Made by a program: the position numbers and the translations under genes
The notes under the pieces: model-generated
Database searches by the model: none
Told to the model about the DNA's origin: nothing
Seen by the model: only the letters and a program-made list of their open reading frames with translations
IMG/VR virus record: IMGVR_UViG_2657245081_000006
Reading direction: 5' to 3' (one strand)
DNA: 18,498 bases
From: a virus
Taxonomy: Duplodnaviria; Heunggongvirae; Uroviricota; Caudoviricetes
Shown: in pieces, positions 9,173 through 18,498 of the stretch
How positions within the stretch are numbered: position 1 is the first letter of the stretch
Layout of the letters: each line of letters begins with the position of its first letter

Positions 9173-9393
9173 GCCGCACCTCCGAGATGCTTCATGTTTT
9201 TTCCGGAGCGAAAGGCTATAAGCGGCATACTGACGCGGTAATTACGGCCCAGCGGTTCACAAATCACCTTCTGACATTCACGGTCAACCAGGCTAACACG
9301 TAGAACATGCCCTGCAGGCGTGGTGTACCACTGACCGGGGCGAGGACAACGGAAAGTCTGATTGGTAAATCGTTTGAAAATATTCCGGATCAT
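9169..9393 (-). CDS. hypothetical small protein, 74 aa, translationally coupled between the Rha-domain gene and the O-like gene
   Basis: ATGA overlaps at both ends (9390-9393 and 9169-9172); no family recognised. Confidence 0.5.
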   Translation of the reverse strand: MIRNIFKRFTNQTFRCPRPGQWYTTPAGHVLRVSLVDRECQKVICEPLGRNYRVSMPLIAFRSGKNMKHLGGAA

Positions 9394-10538
9394 TTGCGCC
9401 CCCTTACCTCTGAAGAGTTCAGCGACGAATGAATAAGACGGGCAAGAAATGCCGCATCGTTAATTCGGTCATACAGACTTACAGCCAGAGGTGATTCAGC
9501 TTTTTCCAGCATGGGATAAAGCTGCTGCAACCAGACCTGATGAATTGATGAAATGTAGGAATAGAGAACGCTGGCGTTATGTGCAACGTCGCTCGGTACA
9601 GCGGGCTTTGAAAGCTGTTTCTCCATCTGGTTAAAGGCATTGATGTATGCCTCTTTGAACTGGGCAGCACGTTTACCCGTGAAACCCATAGCAAGAAACG
9701 CAAAGCCGTCGCGGGTTATTTGATAGCAAGGTAGTTTGCGGCCTGTGCAATCGGTGTAATCACTCACCGAAAAATTGCGGGCAGTGAATGATGCGGAACA
9801 TTCAAGCGTGCGGATCTTTTTCAGTACATCGTCATGACGTTTGGAGAAGAAGTTGGCAACAGCCAGGGATGAAGTAACAGCCTGACCATCAACGATGGCA
9901 ATTTCAGGTTGAGTGAGGGTTGGGATCGTAGCCATGATGGCAGTCTCCGATAACAGTGAATTACCTTCACCACCGGAAACGCCAATTTCGCTGGTGGTGA
10001 ACTGAACGGGGTTGGCGTAACCGGCGTTATCGGAAACCGGCGCACCTTTCGGTGCCCCCGTCCAGCCCACCATAATTTGGGTGTGCACAGACGCAGACGA
10101 TAAAAAAGACGCTGGCGCGTCATATATCGCCGATAACATTTCCAGGACGCCAATCCCGACACCCGCTTTATAAGGTGCCTGAACAGTGTAACGTCCCGGA
10201 ATGGCAGAATCAATGTGCTGGTGGTCCTTCACACTCAACAAAATCACGCCTGAATTTCCACAAAGGACTAAAGCACTCATGCGGGTAGTCTTTGCGAAGA
10301 TAGATAACGCGCTGTGTTTCTGGCTCCCAACGAATAACATGGACATAAAGCCCTCTTCCGTCACGAAACCAGCGGTTAAGTTCCTGCACAACTCGCCCCC
10401 CACAGTCAGGTAAAGTTCTCTGTGGTTACTTACAGCCAGGTGATTTGGTAATCTGCATTCATGCCGTAACAACAGGTGTTCAGCGACGCTGACCACCAGC
10501 TGTTGCGACAAACGGTTATTTGCCGTTAAACTGTTCAT
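9390..10538 (-). CDS. protein with C-terminal Rha (phage regulatory protein Rha) domain and an unrecognised about 200-aa N-terminal region, 382 aa; alternative start at 9935 would give a 181-aa Rha-only protein
   Basis: Residues about 211-308, IVDGQAVTSSLAVANFFSKRHDDVLKKI...YQITRDGFAFLAMGFTGKRAAQFKEAYINAFNQME, are the Rha signature. ATG 10536-10538 overlaps the cII-like stop (ATGA). Confidence 0.6.
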   Translation of the reverse strand: MNSLTANNRLSQQLVVSVAEHLLLRHECRLPNHLAVSNHRELYLTVGGELCRNLTAGFVTEEGFMSMLFVGSQKHSALSIFAKTTRMSALVLCGNSGVILLSVKDHQHIDSAIPGRYTVQAPYKAGVGIGVLEMLSAIYDAPASFLSSASVHTQIMVGWTGAPKGAPVSDNAGYANPVQFTTSEIGVSGGEGNSLLSETAIMATIPTLTQPEIAIVDGQAVTSSLAVANFFSKRHDDVLKKIRTLECSASFTARNFSVSDYTDCTGRKLPCYQITRDGFAFLAMGFTGKRAAQFKEAYINAFNQMEKQLSKPAVPSDVAHNASVLYSYISSIHQVWLQQLYPMLEKAESPLAVSLYDRINDAAFLARLIHSSLNSSEVRGRK

Positions 10539-16931: not shown

Positions 16932-16967
16932 TTTTCCCGGGTGCAGCCGGTTTTGATGGAGAAAATT

Positions 16968-17249
16968 ATGAACACCTTGTTTTTACTGATGGCTGAATTC
17001 AATACCCCTAACATTGAACTCTCAGCAGTTAGCCAAAAGTACTTTGGCATGAGTCCAGCCACGGCAGAAGCAAAAGCAAACGCTTGTAAGTTGCCCGTTC
17101 CAACATATCGCATCGGCACATCACAAAAAGCAAAACGTTGCATCAATATTCAGGATCTTGCGGAATACATAGACAAAAGACGAGAAGAAGGACGTATCGA
17201 GTGGGAACAGGTCAGAACAAGCAAACAGAAGGGCAAAGAACATCACTAA
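16968..17249 (+). CDS. PrtN-family protein (pyocin-activator-like; excisionase-type regulator in prophages), 93 aa
   Basis: MNTLFLLMAEF...KLPVPTYRIGTSQKAKRCINIQDLAEYIDKRREEG matches the PrtN-type pattern; GGAG 7 nt upstream of the ATG at 16968. Confidence 0.6.
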   Translation: MNTLFLLMAEFNTPNIELSAVSQKYFGMSPATAEAKANACKLPVPTYRIGTSQKAKRCINIQDLAEYIDKRREEGRIEWEQVRTSKQKGKEHH

Positions 17250-17251
17250 AT

Positions 17252-17279
17252 AAAAAACCCGCCTAAAGGCGGGTTTTCA
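17252..17279. terminator. bidirectional intrinsic terminator between the convergent early-left operon and the right-end cargo operon
   Basis: aaaaaacccgcc-taaa-ggcgggtttt; the minus-strand reading has the longer T-run. Confidence 0.65.
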
Positions 17280-17296
17280 AAAAGCACCAGCTATGA

Positions 17297-17470
17297 TCAT
17301 GCTGCTTTGCGACGACGAAGCTTACCCTGCTGCTCTTTACCAGAGACAGTAGCGTGAGTGAACGCATTAGGAGCAGCCTTCATCAGAACTTCAACAGCAG
17401 CACCCATACCTGCGAATGCTTTCATTGTGTCGAACTTAACCTGTGGCTTGGTTGCTTTTTGATCTTCCAT
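17297..17470 (-). CDS. hypothetical small protein, 57 aa (below the 60-aa cutoff of the ORF track)
   Basis: ATG at 17468-17470 preceded by AGGAG at 7-nt spacing; translation MEDQKATKPQVKFDTMKAFAGMGAAVEVLMKAAPNAFTHATVSGKEQQGKLRRRKAA; TGA stop; terminator follows. Confidence 0.5.
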   Translation of the reverse strand: MEDQKATKPQVKFDTMKAFAGMGAAVEVLMKAAPNAFTHATVSGKEQQGKLRRRKAA

Positions 17471-17509
17471 AGAAAACTCCTGAAGTTATACCGAAACAAT
17501 TCCTGTTGT

Positions 17510-17929
17510 TTACTCATCATCAATAGATGATACGCAATATTTATTTTTAAATTTAAGGTTCTTTGGCGTAACTTCATCAGAGATATCAAAACCGTCCAGA
17601 ATTCTATTGAATGTAGCTTCTGGCATATCATCATGAACAGAAATCTCACCCGATCGCTGCTTTCTAACCATGTTATCCACTCGCCAAATTATAGCTTCAG
17701 CGTAAACAACATAACTTGGATGCTTGATAAAGCGATGATCACCAGAATTCAAGACGCAAGACGGATCGTGGGGGACACCATCCTTGATACTAGAAATATT
17801 AACAACTAAAACACAATAACAATCGTTAACGGGGTAATAAACAGGATCATTACAAATCACATGAAGATGATTGCATGGCCCAGTTGGGGCAAGCACAGTT
17901 CCTTTCCTGTATGGCTGATAATCCGTCAT
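17510..17929 (-). CDS. hypothetical protein, candidate toxin partner of the Panacea-domain gene, 139 aa
   Basis: ATGA start/stop overlap with the upstream Panacea gene (17926-17929); AT-rich; CYCVLVVNISSIK and WRVDNMVRK segments loosely resemble MazF/PemK-like strands by eye only. Confidence 0.55.
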   Translation of the reverse strand: MTDYQPYRKGTVLAPTGPCNHLHVICNDPVYYPVNDCYCVLVVNISSIKDGVPHDPSCVLNSGDHRFIKHPSYVVYAEAIIWRVDNMVRKQRSGEISVHDDMPEATFNRILDGFDISDEVTPKNLKFKNKYCVSSIDDE

Positions 17930-18498
17930 GATAATTGCAAAGAAAATTCCTTAAGTTTCTGAGATTCTTCCATTTTGCCAATTATGCGATTAGCCTCATC
18001 CTCGCTTTTACCCTCACTGATCAGCATTTCTTTCAGGTCTATAGGCTTACGAGAATTGCCAGGATCGTGCCACTCTGGACAAACGCTTTCTAGATGCGTC
18101 ATATTTGCGAGATCAAATCGGTTCATATGCCCATACCGAGAATAGATTTCATCTAAAATCCGGATATCTGCACGACTCAATTCATCAAAGACCTCGTCTG
18201 CATCCATTTCCCTCGGATCTGAACGCAACGATACATTATGCCCGTTCGTCTCTATCAAGTTGTACCAGTAGTCACCAATGCCTTCAGCCTTACCGCGAAT
18301 CAAGTTCAGCGTATTCGACATGACTGGTCCAAATTTCATAGAGTAAAGGCTATCTTCGCCGATCATCCTGCCATGCTTCAAAATCGACTGGCGGTTAGAC
18401 AGATAGAGCAACTTCATCAATTTCAGATATGCCATGCGCCCACCTCGCTTAAGAAGTAGGTATGCAGCCATTTGAGCTACTTTTTCTTCGCAAAACAT
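17926..18498 (-). CDS. Panacea-domain (DUF4065, SocA/PanA-like) protein, 190 aa; start codon is the last 3 nt of the window
   Basis: N-terminal ...MAYLKLMKLLYLSNRQSI...SMKFGPVMSN matches the Panacea core (LKLxKLLY ... GPV); AT-rich. Confidence 0.7.
   Translation of the reverse strand: MFCEEKVAQMAAYLLLKRGGRMAYLKLMKLLYLSNRQSILKHGRMIGEDSLYSMKFGPVMSNTLNLIRGKAEGIGDYWYNLIETNGHNVSLRSDPREMDADEVFDELSRADIRILDEIYSRYGHMNRFDLANMTHLESVCPEWHDPGNSRKPIDLKEMLISEGKSEDEANRIIGKMEESQKLKEFSLQLS

What the first reader, a model, noticed from the sequence alone, without database searches (positions are those of the whole stretch)
17297..18498. AT-rich three-gene operon at the right edge: Panacea-domain protein overlapping a 139-aa candidate toxin, then a 57-aa protein
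The 190-aa protein has the Panacea core (LKLMKLLY ... KFGPV). Panacea domains are promiscuous antitoxin domains paired with diverse toxins (PanA/PanT, SocAB). Its stop overlaps the start of a 139-aa ORF by ATGA, the typical toxin-antitoxin coupling, and a 57-aa ORF with a strong SD follows before a terminator. The operon is convergent with the early-left operon, is AT-rich relative to the prophage, and sits where int/att would be expected, which suggests acquired cargo. The 139-aa partner is not a family I can name, so it could be a new PanT toxin type or abortive-infection effector.
Basis: partly seen in the sequence, partly recalled or inferred. Interest (0 to 1): 0.65.

Follow-up and report, generated by a model that had tools for sequence, protein, structure and literature searches.

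The report
Prophage PanA antitoxin with MazF-fold toxin
At the end of an E. coli prophage sits a two-gene toxin-antitoxin pair of an already described kind (a Panacea-domain antitoxin with a MazF-shaped toxin); the 57-aa gene next to it is a separate neighbour, so the finding is real but largely ordinary.

Summary
The 190-aa protein is a Panacea (PF13274) protein, E = 2e-19. Its stop overlaps the 139-aa ORF start by ATGA.

A PanA homologue lies directly upstream in 24 of 26 genome loci; the other two contigs are cut short.

The 57-aa gene is absent from all those loci. In phage mEp460 and O157/O111 prophages it follows a different gene, so it is a backbone neighbour, not a third component.

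The pair occupies a swappable cargo slot between the excisionase-like gene and the dusA attachment site. Sibling prophages carry other modules there, including the validated E. coli membrane-toxin PanAT.

Verdict: new member of a known kind. Toxicity and any anti-phage role are untested here. Interest is low to moderate.

The parts
17926..18498 (-). panA: 190-aa Panacea-domain antitoxin (core about residues 27-137) with a conserved PEWxDPxxSSxPI segment (141-153) and a roughly 37-aa mildly acidic C-terminal tail (154-190)
   Evidence: Pfam PF13274 E = 2.2e-19. RefSeq names it 'Panacea domain-containing protein' WP_000458584.1. 24 homologues lie directly upstream of PanT homologues. Tail pI is 4.7.
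17510..17929 (-). panT: 139-aa MazF/PemK-fold putative toxin, Kurata cluster T6 type. Conserved residues: H21, H23, D28, P29, D55, C58, H65, S72
17926..17929 (-). ATGA stop/start overlap coupling panT translation to panA. There is no usable Shine-Dalgarno for panT
   Evidence: Sequence read. The -4 overlap recurs in about half of the 24 related loci, and -1 in Chimaeribacter.
17297..17470 (-). 57-aa basic protein (pI 10.2, central hydrophobic stretch, phrog_2741, function unknown). It is a phage-backbone neighbour, probably co-transcribed here, and not part of the PanAT module
   Evidence: PHROG hit E = 8e-36. Absent from all non-E. coli PanAT loci. Present without PanAT in mEp460 (gp24), O157 and O111. 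Found only in this E. coli phage group.
17477..17481 (-). AGGAG Shine-Dalgarno of the 57-aa gene, 6 nt before its ATG. The left boundary of the exchangeable cassette lies here, at about 17480-17483
   Evidence: Sequence. Megablast similarity to O157, O111 and mEp460-type prophages ends at query position 540-543 of 16941-17520.
17253..17278 (.). Intrinsic terminator, reported by the scan only on the minus strand: an 11-bp stem with 6 G-C pairs followed by a T-run, ending the panA-panT-57aa unit. Its position right after the convergent PrtN/excisionase-like gene, and the T-rich stretch after the stem on the plus strand seen by eye, suggest it also ends that gene
   Evidence: Terminator scans. 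No terminator-like site was found between panT and the 57-aa gene.

Best explanation
This is a two-gene type II toxin-antitoxin module of the PanAT kind, carried as exchangeable cargo by a dusA-integrating temperate phage of E. coli.

Expression (inferred). panA and panT are transcribed together, and here most likely with the downstream 57-aa gene. The start lies beyond the window's right end: either a weak sigma-70-like site about 125 nt upstream, or read-through from the dusA promoter that integration places upstream. The transcript ends at the terminator at 17253-17278.

Translation (shown by sequence). panT has no Shine-Dalgarno of its own. It is coupled to panA through the ATGA overlap, which keeps antitoxin at or above toxin levels.

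Toxin and neutralisation (inferred). PanT folds like MazF/Kid. By homology with the validated P. moraviensis T6 pair, it arrests growth by blocking protein synthesis, most likely as an endoribonuclease. PanA neutralises it by direct binding. The contact may be through the Panacea core or through the conserved C-terminal tail that all PanAs of this toxin type share.

Biological role (inferred). Either stabilisation of the prophage (addiction) or abortive-infection defence of the lysogen.
For: - PanA identity: Pfam 70.9 bits.
- Link to a validated system: Kurata et al. 2022 (PMC8832971) Dataset S1 lists Pantoea septica LMG 5345 (gap -4) and 'Yersiniaceae bacterium 2016Iso4' (gap -1) in toxin cluster T6, with P. 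moraviensis PanT, annotated EndoA/PemK/MazF by HHpred and marked 'TA'. My loci L008 and L007 come from those same genomes, reproduce those gaps, and encode proteins 55-56% identical to the window protein.
- Further T6 species among the homologues: Proteus, Salinivibrio socompensis and Chimaeribacter.
- Published data on the P. moraviensis pair: toxic, neutralised, co-purifies with PanA, and inhibits 35S-Met incorporation.
- Conserved pairing: a PanA homologue lies directly upstream in 24 of 26 loci, the other two being truncated contigs. The same holds next to a distant representative and in Yersinia, Klebsiella and Pseudomonas phages.
- Purifying selection on both genes. Both genes are at full length in 206 of the 208 E. 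coli genomes that carry the pair.
- Cargo status: low GC. The same slot holds the validated E. coli PanA-PanT membrane pair WP_000287252.1/WP_000019185.1 in 79 genomes, a YafO module in 49, and a 177-aa gene in 358.
Against: - No toxicity, neutralisation or binding was tested for this pair.
- Kurata et al. found several predicted PanTs non-toxic in E. coli, including an E. coli prophage 'mRNase' of another cluster, T1.
- The link to MazF is at fold level only. There was no Pfam PemK hit, no PDB sequence hit with the family profile, and hhalign to E. coli MazF and Kid was insignificant.
- The MazF Arg/Thr catalytic pair was not identified. The protein is acidic (pI 5.6), which is atypical for an RNA-binding MazF.
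- I could not obtain the P. moraviensis toxin sequence, so homology to it rests on the published clustering and on a 40%-identical Pseudomonas sp. KK4 relative.
- No promoter lies inside the window. The outside candidate is no better than chance.
Confidence: 0.7

Rival explanations
1. One reading: a three-component system in which the 57-aa protein is a functional partner of PanA-PanT, for example an accessory factor, a second antitoxin or an effector.
For: - It lies on the same strand, 39 nt downstream of panT.
- It has a strong Shine-Dalgarno.
- No terminator was found before the one at 17253-17278.
- The three genes travel together in about 205 E. coli genomes.
Against: - It is absent from all 24 PanAT loci outside E. 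coli.
- It is present without PanAT, behind an unrelated 177-aa gene, in mEp460, O157 and O111.
- The cassette boundary falls between panT and its Shine-Dalgarno.
- Kurata et al. report that third genes next to PanAT pairs occur only in small subsets of genomes and probably play no general role.
Confidence: 0.08
2. The pair is real, but the 139-aa protein is not a growth-arresting toxin in E. coli. It could be an inert or conditionally active partner, or a protein with a non-toxic function that merely travels with Panacea.
For: - Eight of the predicted PanTs tested by Kurata et al. were not toxic in E. coli, including E. coli MOD1 and Salmonella phage Emek 'mRNases' of cluster T1.
- The canonical MazF catalytic residues are not recognisable.
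Against: - A member of the same cluster (T6) is toxic and is neutralised.
- The tight A-then-T coupling is conserved across alpha-, beta- and gammaproteobacteria.
- Purifying selection is strong and a polar His/Asp/Cys set is conserved.
Confidence: 0.15
3. The toxin uses the MazF/CcdB scaffold for something other than RNA cleavage. It might be a CcdB-like poison of a protein target, or an enzyme built on the conserved His/Asp/Cys residues.
For: - The pI of 5.6 is acidic.
- H21, H23, D28, D55, C58 and H65 are invariant, rather than an Arg/Thr pair.
- There is no sequence-level similarity to MazF or Kid.
Against: - MazF and Kid outrank CcdB in both structure searches.
- The validated T6 member selectively blocks translation rather than replication.
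- His-based, metal-independent RNases are common (my own knowledge).
Confidence: 0.12
4. A SocAB-like type VI system: PanA acts as a proteolytic adaptor that delivers the toxin to ClpXP, rather than as a stoichiometric inhibitor.
For: SocA is the founding Panacea protein. NCBIfam SocA_antitoxin gives a faint hit.
Against: - The SocA equivalog scores 14.4 bits against a cut-off of 190.
- The partner is MazF-fold, not SocB.
- Kurata et al. showed stable PanA-PanT complexes, including for the T6 pair.
Confidence: 0.04

Closest known systems
PanA-PanT of Pseudomonas moraviensis (toxin cluster T6, 'EndoA/PemK/MazF-family RNase'), Kurata et al. 2022, PNAS 119:e2102212119
   Same: - A stand-alone Panacea antitoxin with no N-terminal domain comes first.
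- A toxin of about 130-140 aa follows, overlapping by 1-4 nt.
- Both toxins fall in the same published cluster, via shared members in Pantoea septica, Chimaeribacter, Proteus and Salinivibrio.
- The PanA N-termini are alike: MFCEEKVAQ here, MIFSEQKVAQ there.
   Different: - This copy is carried by an E. coli prophage; the P. moraviensis locus was scored 'NotPhage'.
- This pair has not been tested experimentally.
- I did not align the two toxins directly. The nearest Pseudomonas relative I could retrieve is 40% identical.
E. coli STEC PanA-PanT (WP_000287252.1 / WP_000019185.1, membrane-depolarising toxin), Kurata et al. 2022
   Same: It occupies exactly the same slot, between the PrtN/excisionase-like gene and the dusA attachment site, in sibling prophages. 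It also has the Panacea antitoxin first and the toxin second.
   Different: - The toxin is unrelated: a 182-aa membrane protein.
- The PanAs are only 20% identical, and the STEC PanA (157 aa) lacks the C-terminal tail.
- The 57-aa gene is absent there.
MazEF / Kis-Kid (PemIK) type II toxin-antitoxin systems
   Same: - Bicistronic, antitoxin first, translationally coupled.
- The expected outcome is a translation block.
   Different: - The antitoxin is a Panacea protein, not an AbrB- or MazE-type DNA-binding protein.
- There is no detectable sequence similarity to PF02452.
- The conserved residues are different.
- The toxin has two to three extra C-terminal helices and is acidic.
SocAB (Caulobacter, type VI TA)
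   Same: The antitoxin carries the same Pfam domain, SocA_Panacea.
   Different: The toxin is not SocB, the SocA equivalog model is not met, and the proteolytic-adaptor mechanism is not expected here.

Membership tests
Panacea-domain antitoxin (PanA; Pfam PF13274 / DUF4065) | Match to the SocA_Panacea profile above the gathering score | tested here: met
   70.9 bits against 25.7, E = 2.2e-19, covering profile positions 1-109 of 113.
PanAT type II toxin-antitoxin pair (Kurata et al. 2022 criteria) | Two adjacent co-directional genes no more than 100 nt apart, with the architecture conserved in at least two species and the toxin reciprocally associated with PanA | tested here: met
   The overlap is -4 nt. 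A PanA homologue lies directly upstream of the toxin homologue in 24 of 26 loci from different species, the other two being truncated contigs. The same holds for a distant representative.
PanAT type II toxin-antitoxin pair (Kurata et al. 2022 criteria) | The toxin inhibits growth, the cognate PanA neutralises it, and the two form a complex | not testable with these tools
   This is known only for the P. moraviensis member of the same toxin cluster.
PanT toxin cluster T6 (Kurata Dataset S1) | Sequence homology to listed T6 members | tested here: met
   55-56% identity (tblastn E about 1e-48) to the toxin genes of Pantoea septica LMG 5345 and Chimaeribacter coloradensis 2016-Iso4. Both genomes are listed in T6 with the same gene spacing that I find. 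Homologues also occur in Proteus and Salinivibrio socompensis. A direct comparison with WP_083201923.1 was not possible.
MazF/PemK endoribonuclease family (Pfam PF02452) | Sequence match to the PemK_toxin profile or to MazF/Kid sequences | tested here: not met
   No Pfam hit at E <= 1 apart from a spurious ICMT match. The family profile found nothing among PDB sequences. hhalign probability against E. coli MazF and Kid was below 1%. None of 10 family members has a Pfam hit.
MazF/PemK endoribonuclease family (Pfam PF02452) | MazF/Kid/CcdB three-dimensional fold | tested here: met
   [not shown]
MazF/PemK endoribonuclease family (Pfam PF02452) | Catalytic Arg plus Thr/Ser pair and RNA cleavage activity | tested here: inconclusive
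   No residue-level structural alignment was available. The family conserves H21, H23, D28, D55, C58, H65 and S72 instead. Cleavage activity cannot be tested here.
SocAB type VI toxin-antitoxin | SocA equivalog antitoxin with a SocB toxin partner | tested here: not met
   NCBIfam NF047745 scores 14.4 bits against a cut-off of 190. The partner has the MazF fold.
Catalogued anti-phage defence systems (PADLOC-DB v2) | Match of any of the three proteins to a defence-system model | tested here: not met
   No family at E <= 1 for any of the three proteins.

The most novel reading that the evidence does not exclude
The T6-type PanT may be a mechanistically distinct enzyme on a MazF scaffold. It would use the conserved His/Asp/Cys set (H21, H23, D28, D55, C58, H65) rather than the MazF Arg/Thr chemistry. 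The prophage would deploy the pair as an abortive-infection module: the Panacea domain senses a cue from a superinfecting phage and releases the toxin. The host dusA promoter, captured at integration, would keep the module expressed in the lysogen.
Probability: 0.2. Interest if true: 0.55.

Novelty: new member of a known kind. Interest (0 to 1): 0.3.

Why it matters
The result assigns a family and a testable mechanism to a gene pair present in about 4% of complete E. coli genomes (208 of 5,426). RefSeq currently lists the toxin as 'hypothetical protein' with a mis-called start.

It also shows that the attachment-site end of dusA-integrating prophages is a swap slot for toxin-antitoxin-like cargo. 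The slot holds two unrelated PanAT pairs, a YafO module and an unknown 177-aa gene. This offers a natural set of near-isogenic prophages for asking what Panacea systems do for a lysogen.

It does not reveal a new kind of system.

Tried and rejected
- Profile scans of the 139-aa protein gave no credible hit in Pfam, NCBIfam or PADLOC. PHROGs gave only unannotated families.
- phmmer and profile hmmsearch against PDB sequences gave only chance hits.
MazF membership by sequence is therefore rejected and only the fold is claimed.
- The afdb50 fold library was not available.
I ran no further search on PanA.
- I recovered the P. moraviensis PanT termini from cloning primers (MPGNIL...IRQNNF) and looked for them among 326 retrieved proteins. 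None matched; the nearest is Pseudomonas sp. KK4.
- I searched the paper library for the RefSeq accessions of this pair and found nothing.
- I considered that the window's toxin might be the E. coli MOD1 / phage Emek 'mRNase' that Kurata found non-toxic. That protein is in cluster T1, and tblastn of the window's toxin against the phage collection returned no match to Emek.
- The sigma-70 scan found no promoter for the unit inside the window. The best outside candidate is within chance expectation.

Full report

Yes. The minus strand carries three ORFs at 17926-18498 (190 aa), 17510-17929 (139 aa) and 17297-17470 (57 aa).
- The 190-aa protein matches Pfam SocA_Panacea (PF13274) at 70.9 bits against a 25.7 cut-off, E = 2.2e-19. 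RefSeq names the identical protein 'Panacea domain-containing protein'.
- Its TGA stop overlaps the ATG of the 139-aa ORF as ATGA.
- RefSeq/PGAP starts the second gene at a GTG 11 codons further in (128 aa), which removes the overlap. However, the N-terminus MTxYxPYRKGT is conserved in 35 homologues, so the 139-aa reading is right.
- PanA homologues all start MF/MYxExKxAQ, so the ATG at the last base of the window is the true start. The promoter therefore lies outside the window.
- The 57-aa ORF has AGGAG 6 nt before its ATG.
- An 11-bp G+C-rich hairpin with flanking A and T runs at 17253-17278 ends both this unit and the convergent PrtN-family gene at 16941-17249.
- GC is 0.386 for the 139-aa gene and 0.433 for panA, against 0.481 for the window. 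The 57-aa gene, at 0.483, is not AT-rich.
- dN of 0.07-0.12 with saturated dS against the Kosakonia and Pluralibacter copies shows purifying selection on both genes.

**2. Where is it?**

The right end of the window (17200-18498, the stretch searched) is 99.9% identical to Escherichia phage SKA5 and to prophages in many E. coli chromosomes.
- In a complete genome (L001), panA is the last prophage gene before a 35-codon dusA fragment, followed by yjbM-like, zur and lexA host genes.
- In the phage form (L002), the same spot reads panA, then a dusA-like fragment, then the integrase.
- The two records are identical up to about 200-260 bp beyond panA and then diverge. The lysogen carries the host dusA 5' end (MHGNSEMQ...APMLD). 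The phage carries a diverged surrogate (MHDNHETQ...APMLD).
- So this is a dusA-integrating phage, and the operon sits directly inside the attachment site, on the arm opposite int.
- In both states a dusA-type 5' end points towards panA, about 235 nt upstream. The scan found no terminator between them. Read-through into panA is an inference, not shown.

**3. What is the 139-aa protein?**

Profile libraries give nothing useful.
- Homologues are plentiful. There are 62 clusters with the single sequence. The family profile finds 2,692 representatives at E <= 1e-3 in 1.84 billion proteins. Those listed are nearly all of similar size (mostly about 120-160 aa), and none of the ten scanned has a Pfam domain.
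- An AlphaFold2 model built on 35 homologues is confident, with pLDDT 90.6 and pTM 0.84.
- The Foldseek top 50 PDB hits are all MazF or Kid. In the viral library, PemK-like proteins lead.
- At sequence level there is no link to MazF or Kid.
- Across 24 loci from gamma-, beta- and alphaproteobacteria the conserved residues are H21, H23, D28, P29, D55, C58, H65, S72, Y76 and S117. C26 and H70 are lost in a Pseudomonas member.
- The protein is acidic, pI 5.6.
- Taken together: a MazF-fold protein with its own conserved polar set.

**4. Is it already known?**

Kurata et al. 2022 (PMC8832971) surveyed Panacea neighbourhoods and defined 88 toxin clusters.
- Their cluster T6 is annotated 'EndoA/PemK/MazF-family RNases' by HHpred. 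It contains the validated P. moraviensis pair.
- T6 also lists Proteus vulgaris, Pluralibacter gergoviae, Pantoea septica LMG 5345 (gap -4), 'Yersiniaceae bacterium 2016Iso4' (gap -1), Photorhabdus and Salinivibrio socompensis.
- My genome scan returned loci from those same Pantoea septica and 2016-Iso4 (Chimaeribacter) assemblies. Their toxin genes are 55-56% identical to the window's and show the same -4 and -1 spacings.
- Proteus and Salinivibrio homologues also appear among the hits.
- The window's protein therefore belongs to T6.
- For the P. moraviensis pair the paper shows toxicity, neutralisation, co-purification and selective inhibition of 35S-Met incorporation.
- I could not retrieve that toxin's sequence. 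Its termini, taken from cloning primers, did not match any retrieved protein. The closest Pseudomonas relative is 40% identical to the window's protein.
- The window's toxin is not the E. coli MOD1 / phage Emek 'mRNase' that the paper found non-toxic. That protein is in cluster T1, and tblastn of the window's toxin against the phage collection returned no match to Emek.

**5. Two genes or three?**

- A PanA homologue lies directly upstream of the toxin homologue in 24 of 26 loci. The two exceptions are contigs cut short. About half of the loci keep the ATGA overlap.
- The same arrangement holds for a distant representative and in Yersinia phage YeP1 (next to int), a Klebsiella phage and Pseudomonas phage Sirocco.
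- The 57-aa protein occurs in none of the non-E. coli loci. Among sequenced phages it occurs only in this E. coli group.
- In phage mEp460 and in O157:H7 and O111 prophages it follows a different 177-aa gene.
- Similarity to those prophages stops at about 17480-17483, right at its Shine-Dalgarno.
- It is therefore a backbone neighbour onto which the PanAT cassette abuts. It is probably co-transcribed here but is not part of the module.

**6. The slot**

Counts among 5,426 complete E. coli genomes:

| Feature at the slot | Genomes |
|---|---|
| PrtN/excisionase-like gene present | 741 |
| This PanAT (206 at full length) | 208 |
| Validated E. coli membrane-toxin PanAT of Kurata et al. (WP_000287252.1 / WP_000019185.1) | 79 |
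| 179-aa gene plus YafO-family toxin | 49 |
| 177-aa unknown gene | 358 |

- One variant adds a CoiA-like nuclease gene.
- The two PanAs are only 20% identical, and the membrane-type one lacks the C-terminal tail.
- Whole modules are therefore exchanged here, not just toxins.

**7. Mechanism**

- Shown by sequence: translational coupling of panT to panA, a shared terminator, and the cargo position next to att.
- Inferred from the validated relative and the fold: PanT blocks translation, most likely by cutting RNA, and PanA binds and neutralises it.
- All PanAs paired with this toxin share a conserved PEWxDPxxSSxPI segment and a variable tail of about 37 aa, mildly acidic.
- By analogy with the Phd-C, PAD1 and ZBD 'linear neutralisation' described in the NetFlax study (PMC10440598), the tail is a candidate neutralising element and Panacea a possible sensor. 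This is speculation.
- That study reports no anti-phage activity for a PanAT pair, and PADLOC has no matching model. Defence and prophage addiction therefore both remain open.

**8. Verdict**

This is a new, untested member of a described PanAT toxin cluster, sitting in a cargo hotspot. It is not a new toxin type and not a three-gene system.

Noticed in passing
window 17480-18498 and beyond; loci L029-L035, L040: The slot between the PrtN/excisionase-like gene and the dusA attachment site is a cargo hotspot in sibling prophages. It holds this PanAT (208 genomes), the validated E. coli membrane-toxin PanAT (79), a 179-aa gene plus a YafO toxin (49), or an unknown 177-aa gene, mEp460 gp23 (358). 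One variant adds a CoiA-like nuclease gene.
   Followed up: partly
L001 9300-9700 and L002 9300-9760 (just beyond the window's right end): The attachment site lies in the 5' end of dusA. The lysogen keeps the host's first 35 dusA codons at this junction, and the phage carries a diverged surrogate 5' end next to int. Both read towards panA, about 235 nt upstream, with no predicted terminator between. The host dusA promoter may therefore drive the cargo in lysogens.
   Followed up: partly
window 17510-17929 (-): RefSeq/PGAP annotates the toxin as 128 aa from a GTG at 17896. Homologue alignment supports the ATG at 17929 (139 aa), which restores the ATGA overlap with panA.
   Followed up: yes
window 17297-17470 (-): The 57-aa protein (phrog_2741) is strongly basic (pI 10.2), with a central hydrophobic stretch and a KLRRRKAA tail. 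It is restricted to this E. coli phage group, and its function is unknown.
   Followed up: partly
window 9990-10178 (-): Rfam gathering-level hits to C4 antisense RNA (9990-10077, 82.8 bits) and the isrK Hfq-binding sRNA (10102-10178, 61.5 bits). Both lie inside a mechanical 382-aa ORF (9390-10538, minus strand). This looks like a P1/Gifsy-type antirepressor control region.
   Followed up: no
window 16941-17249 (+): The convergent neighbour is a PrtN-family protein (PF11112, E = 4e-23). In phage mEp460 the equivalent gene is annotated as the excisionase.
   Followed up: partly
L029 4727-5260 (-); mEp460 gp23: The commonest alternative cargo is a 177-aa protein with no Pfam match, more than 99% conserved in 358 E. 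coli genomes including O157:H7 and O111. It is an uncharacterised candidate for a lysogenic-conversion or defence gene.
   Followed up: no
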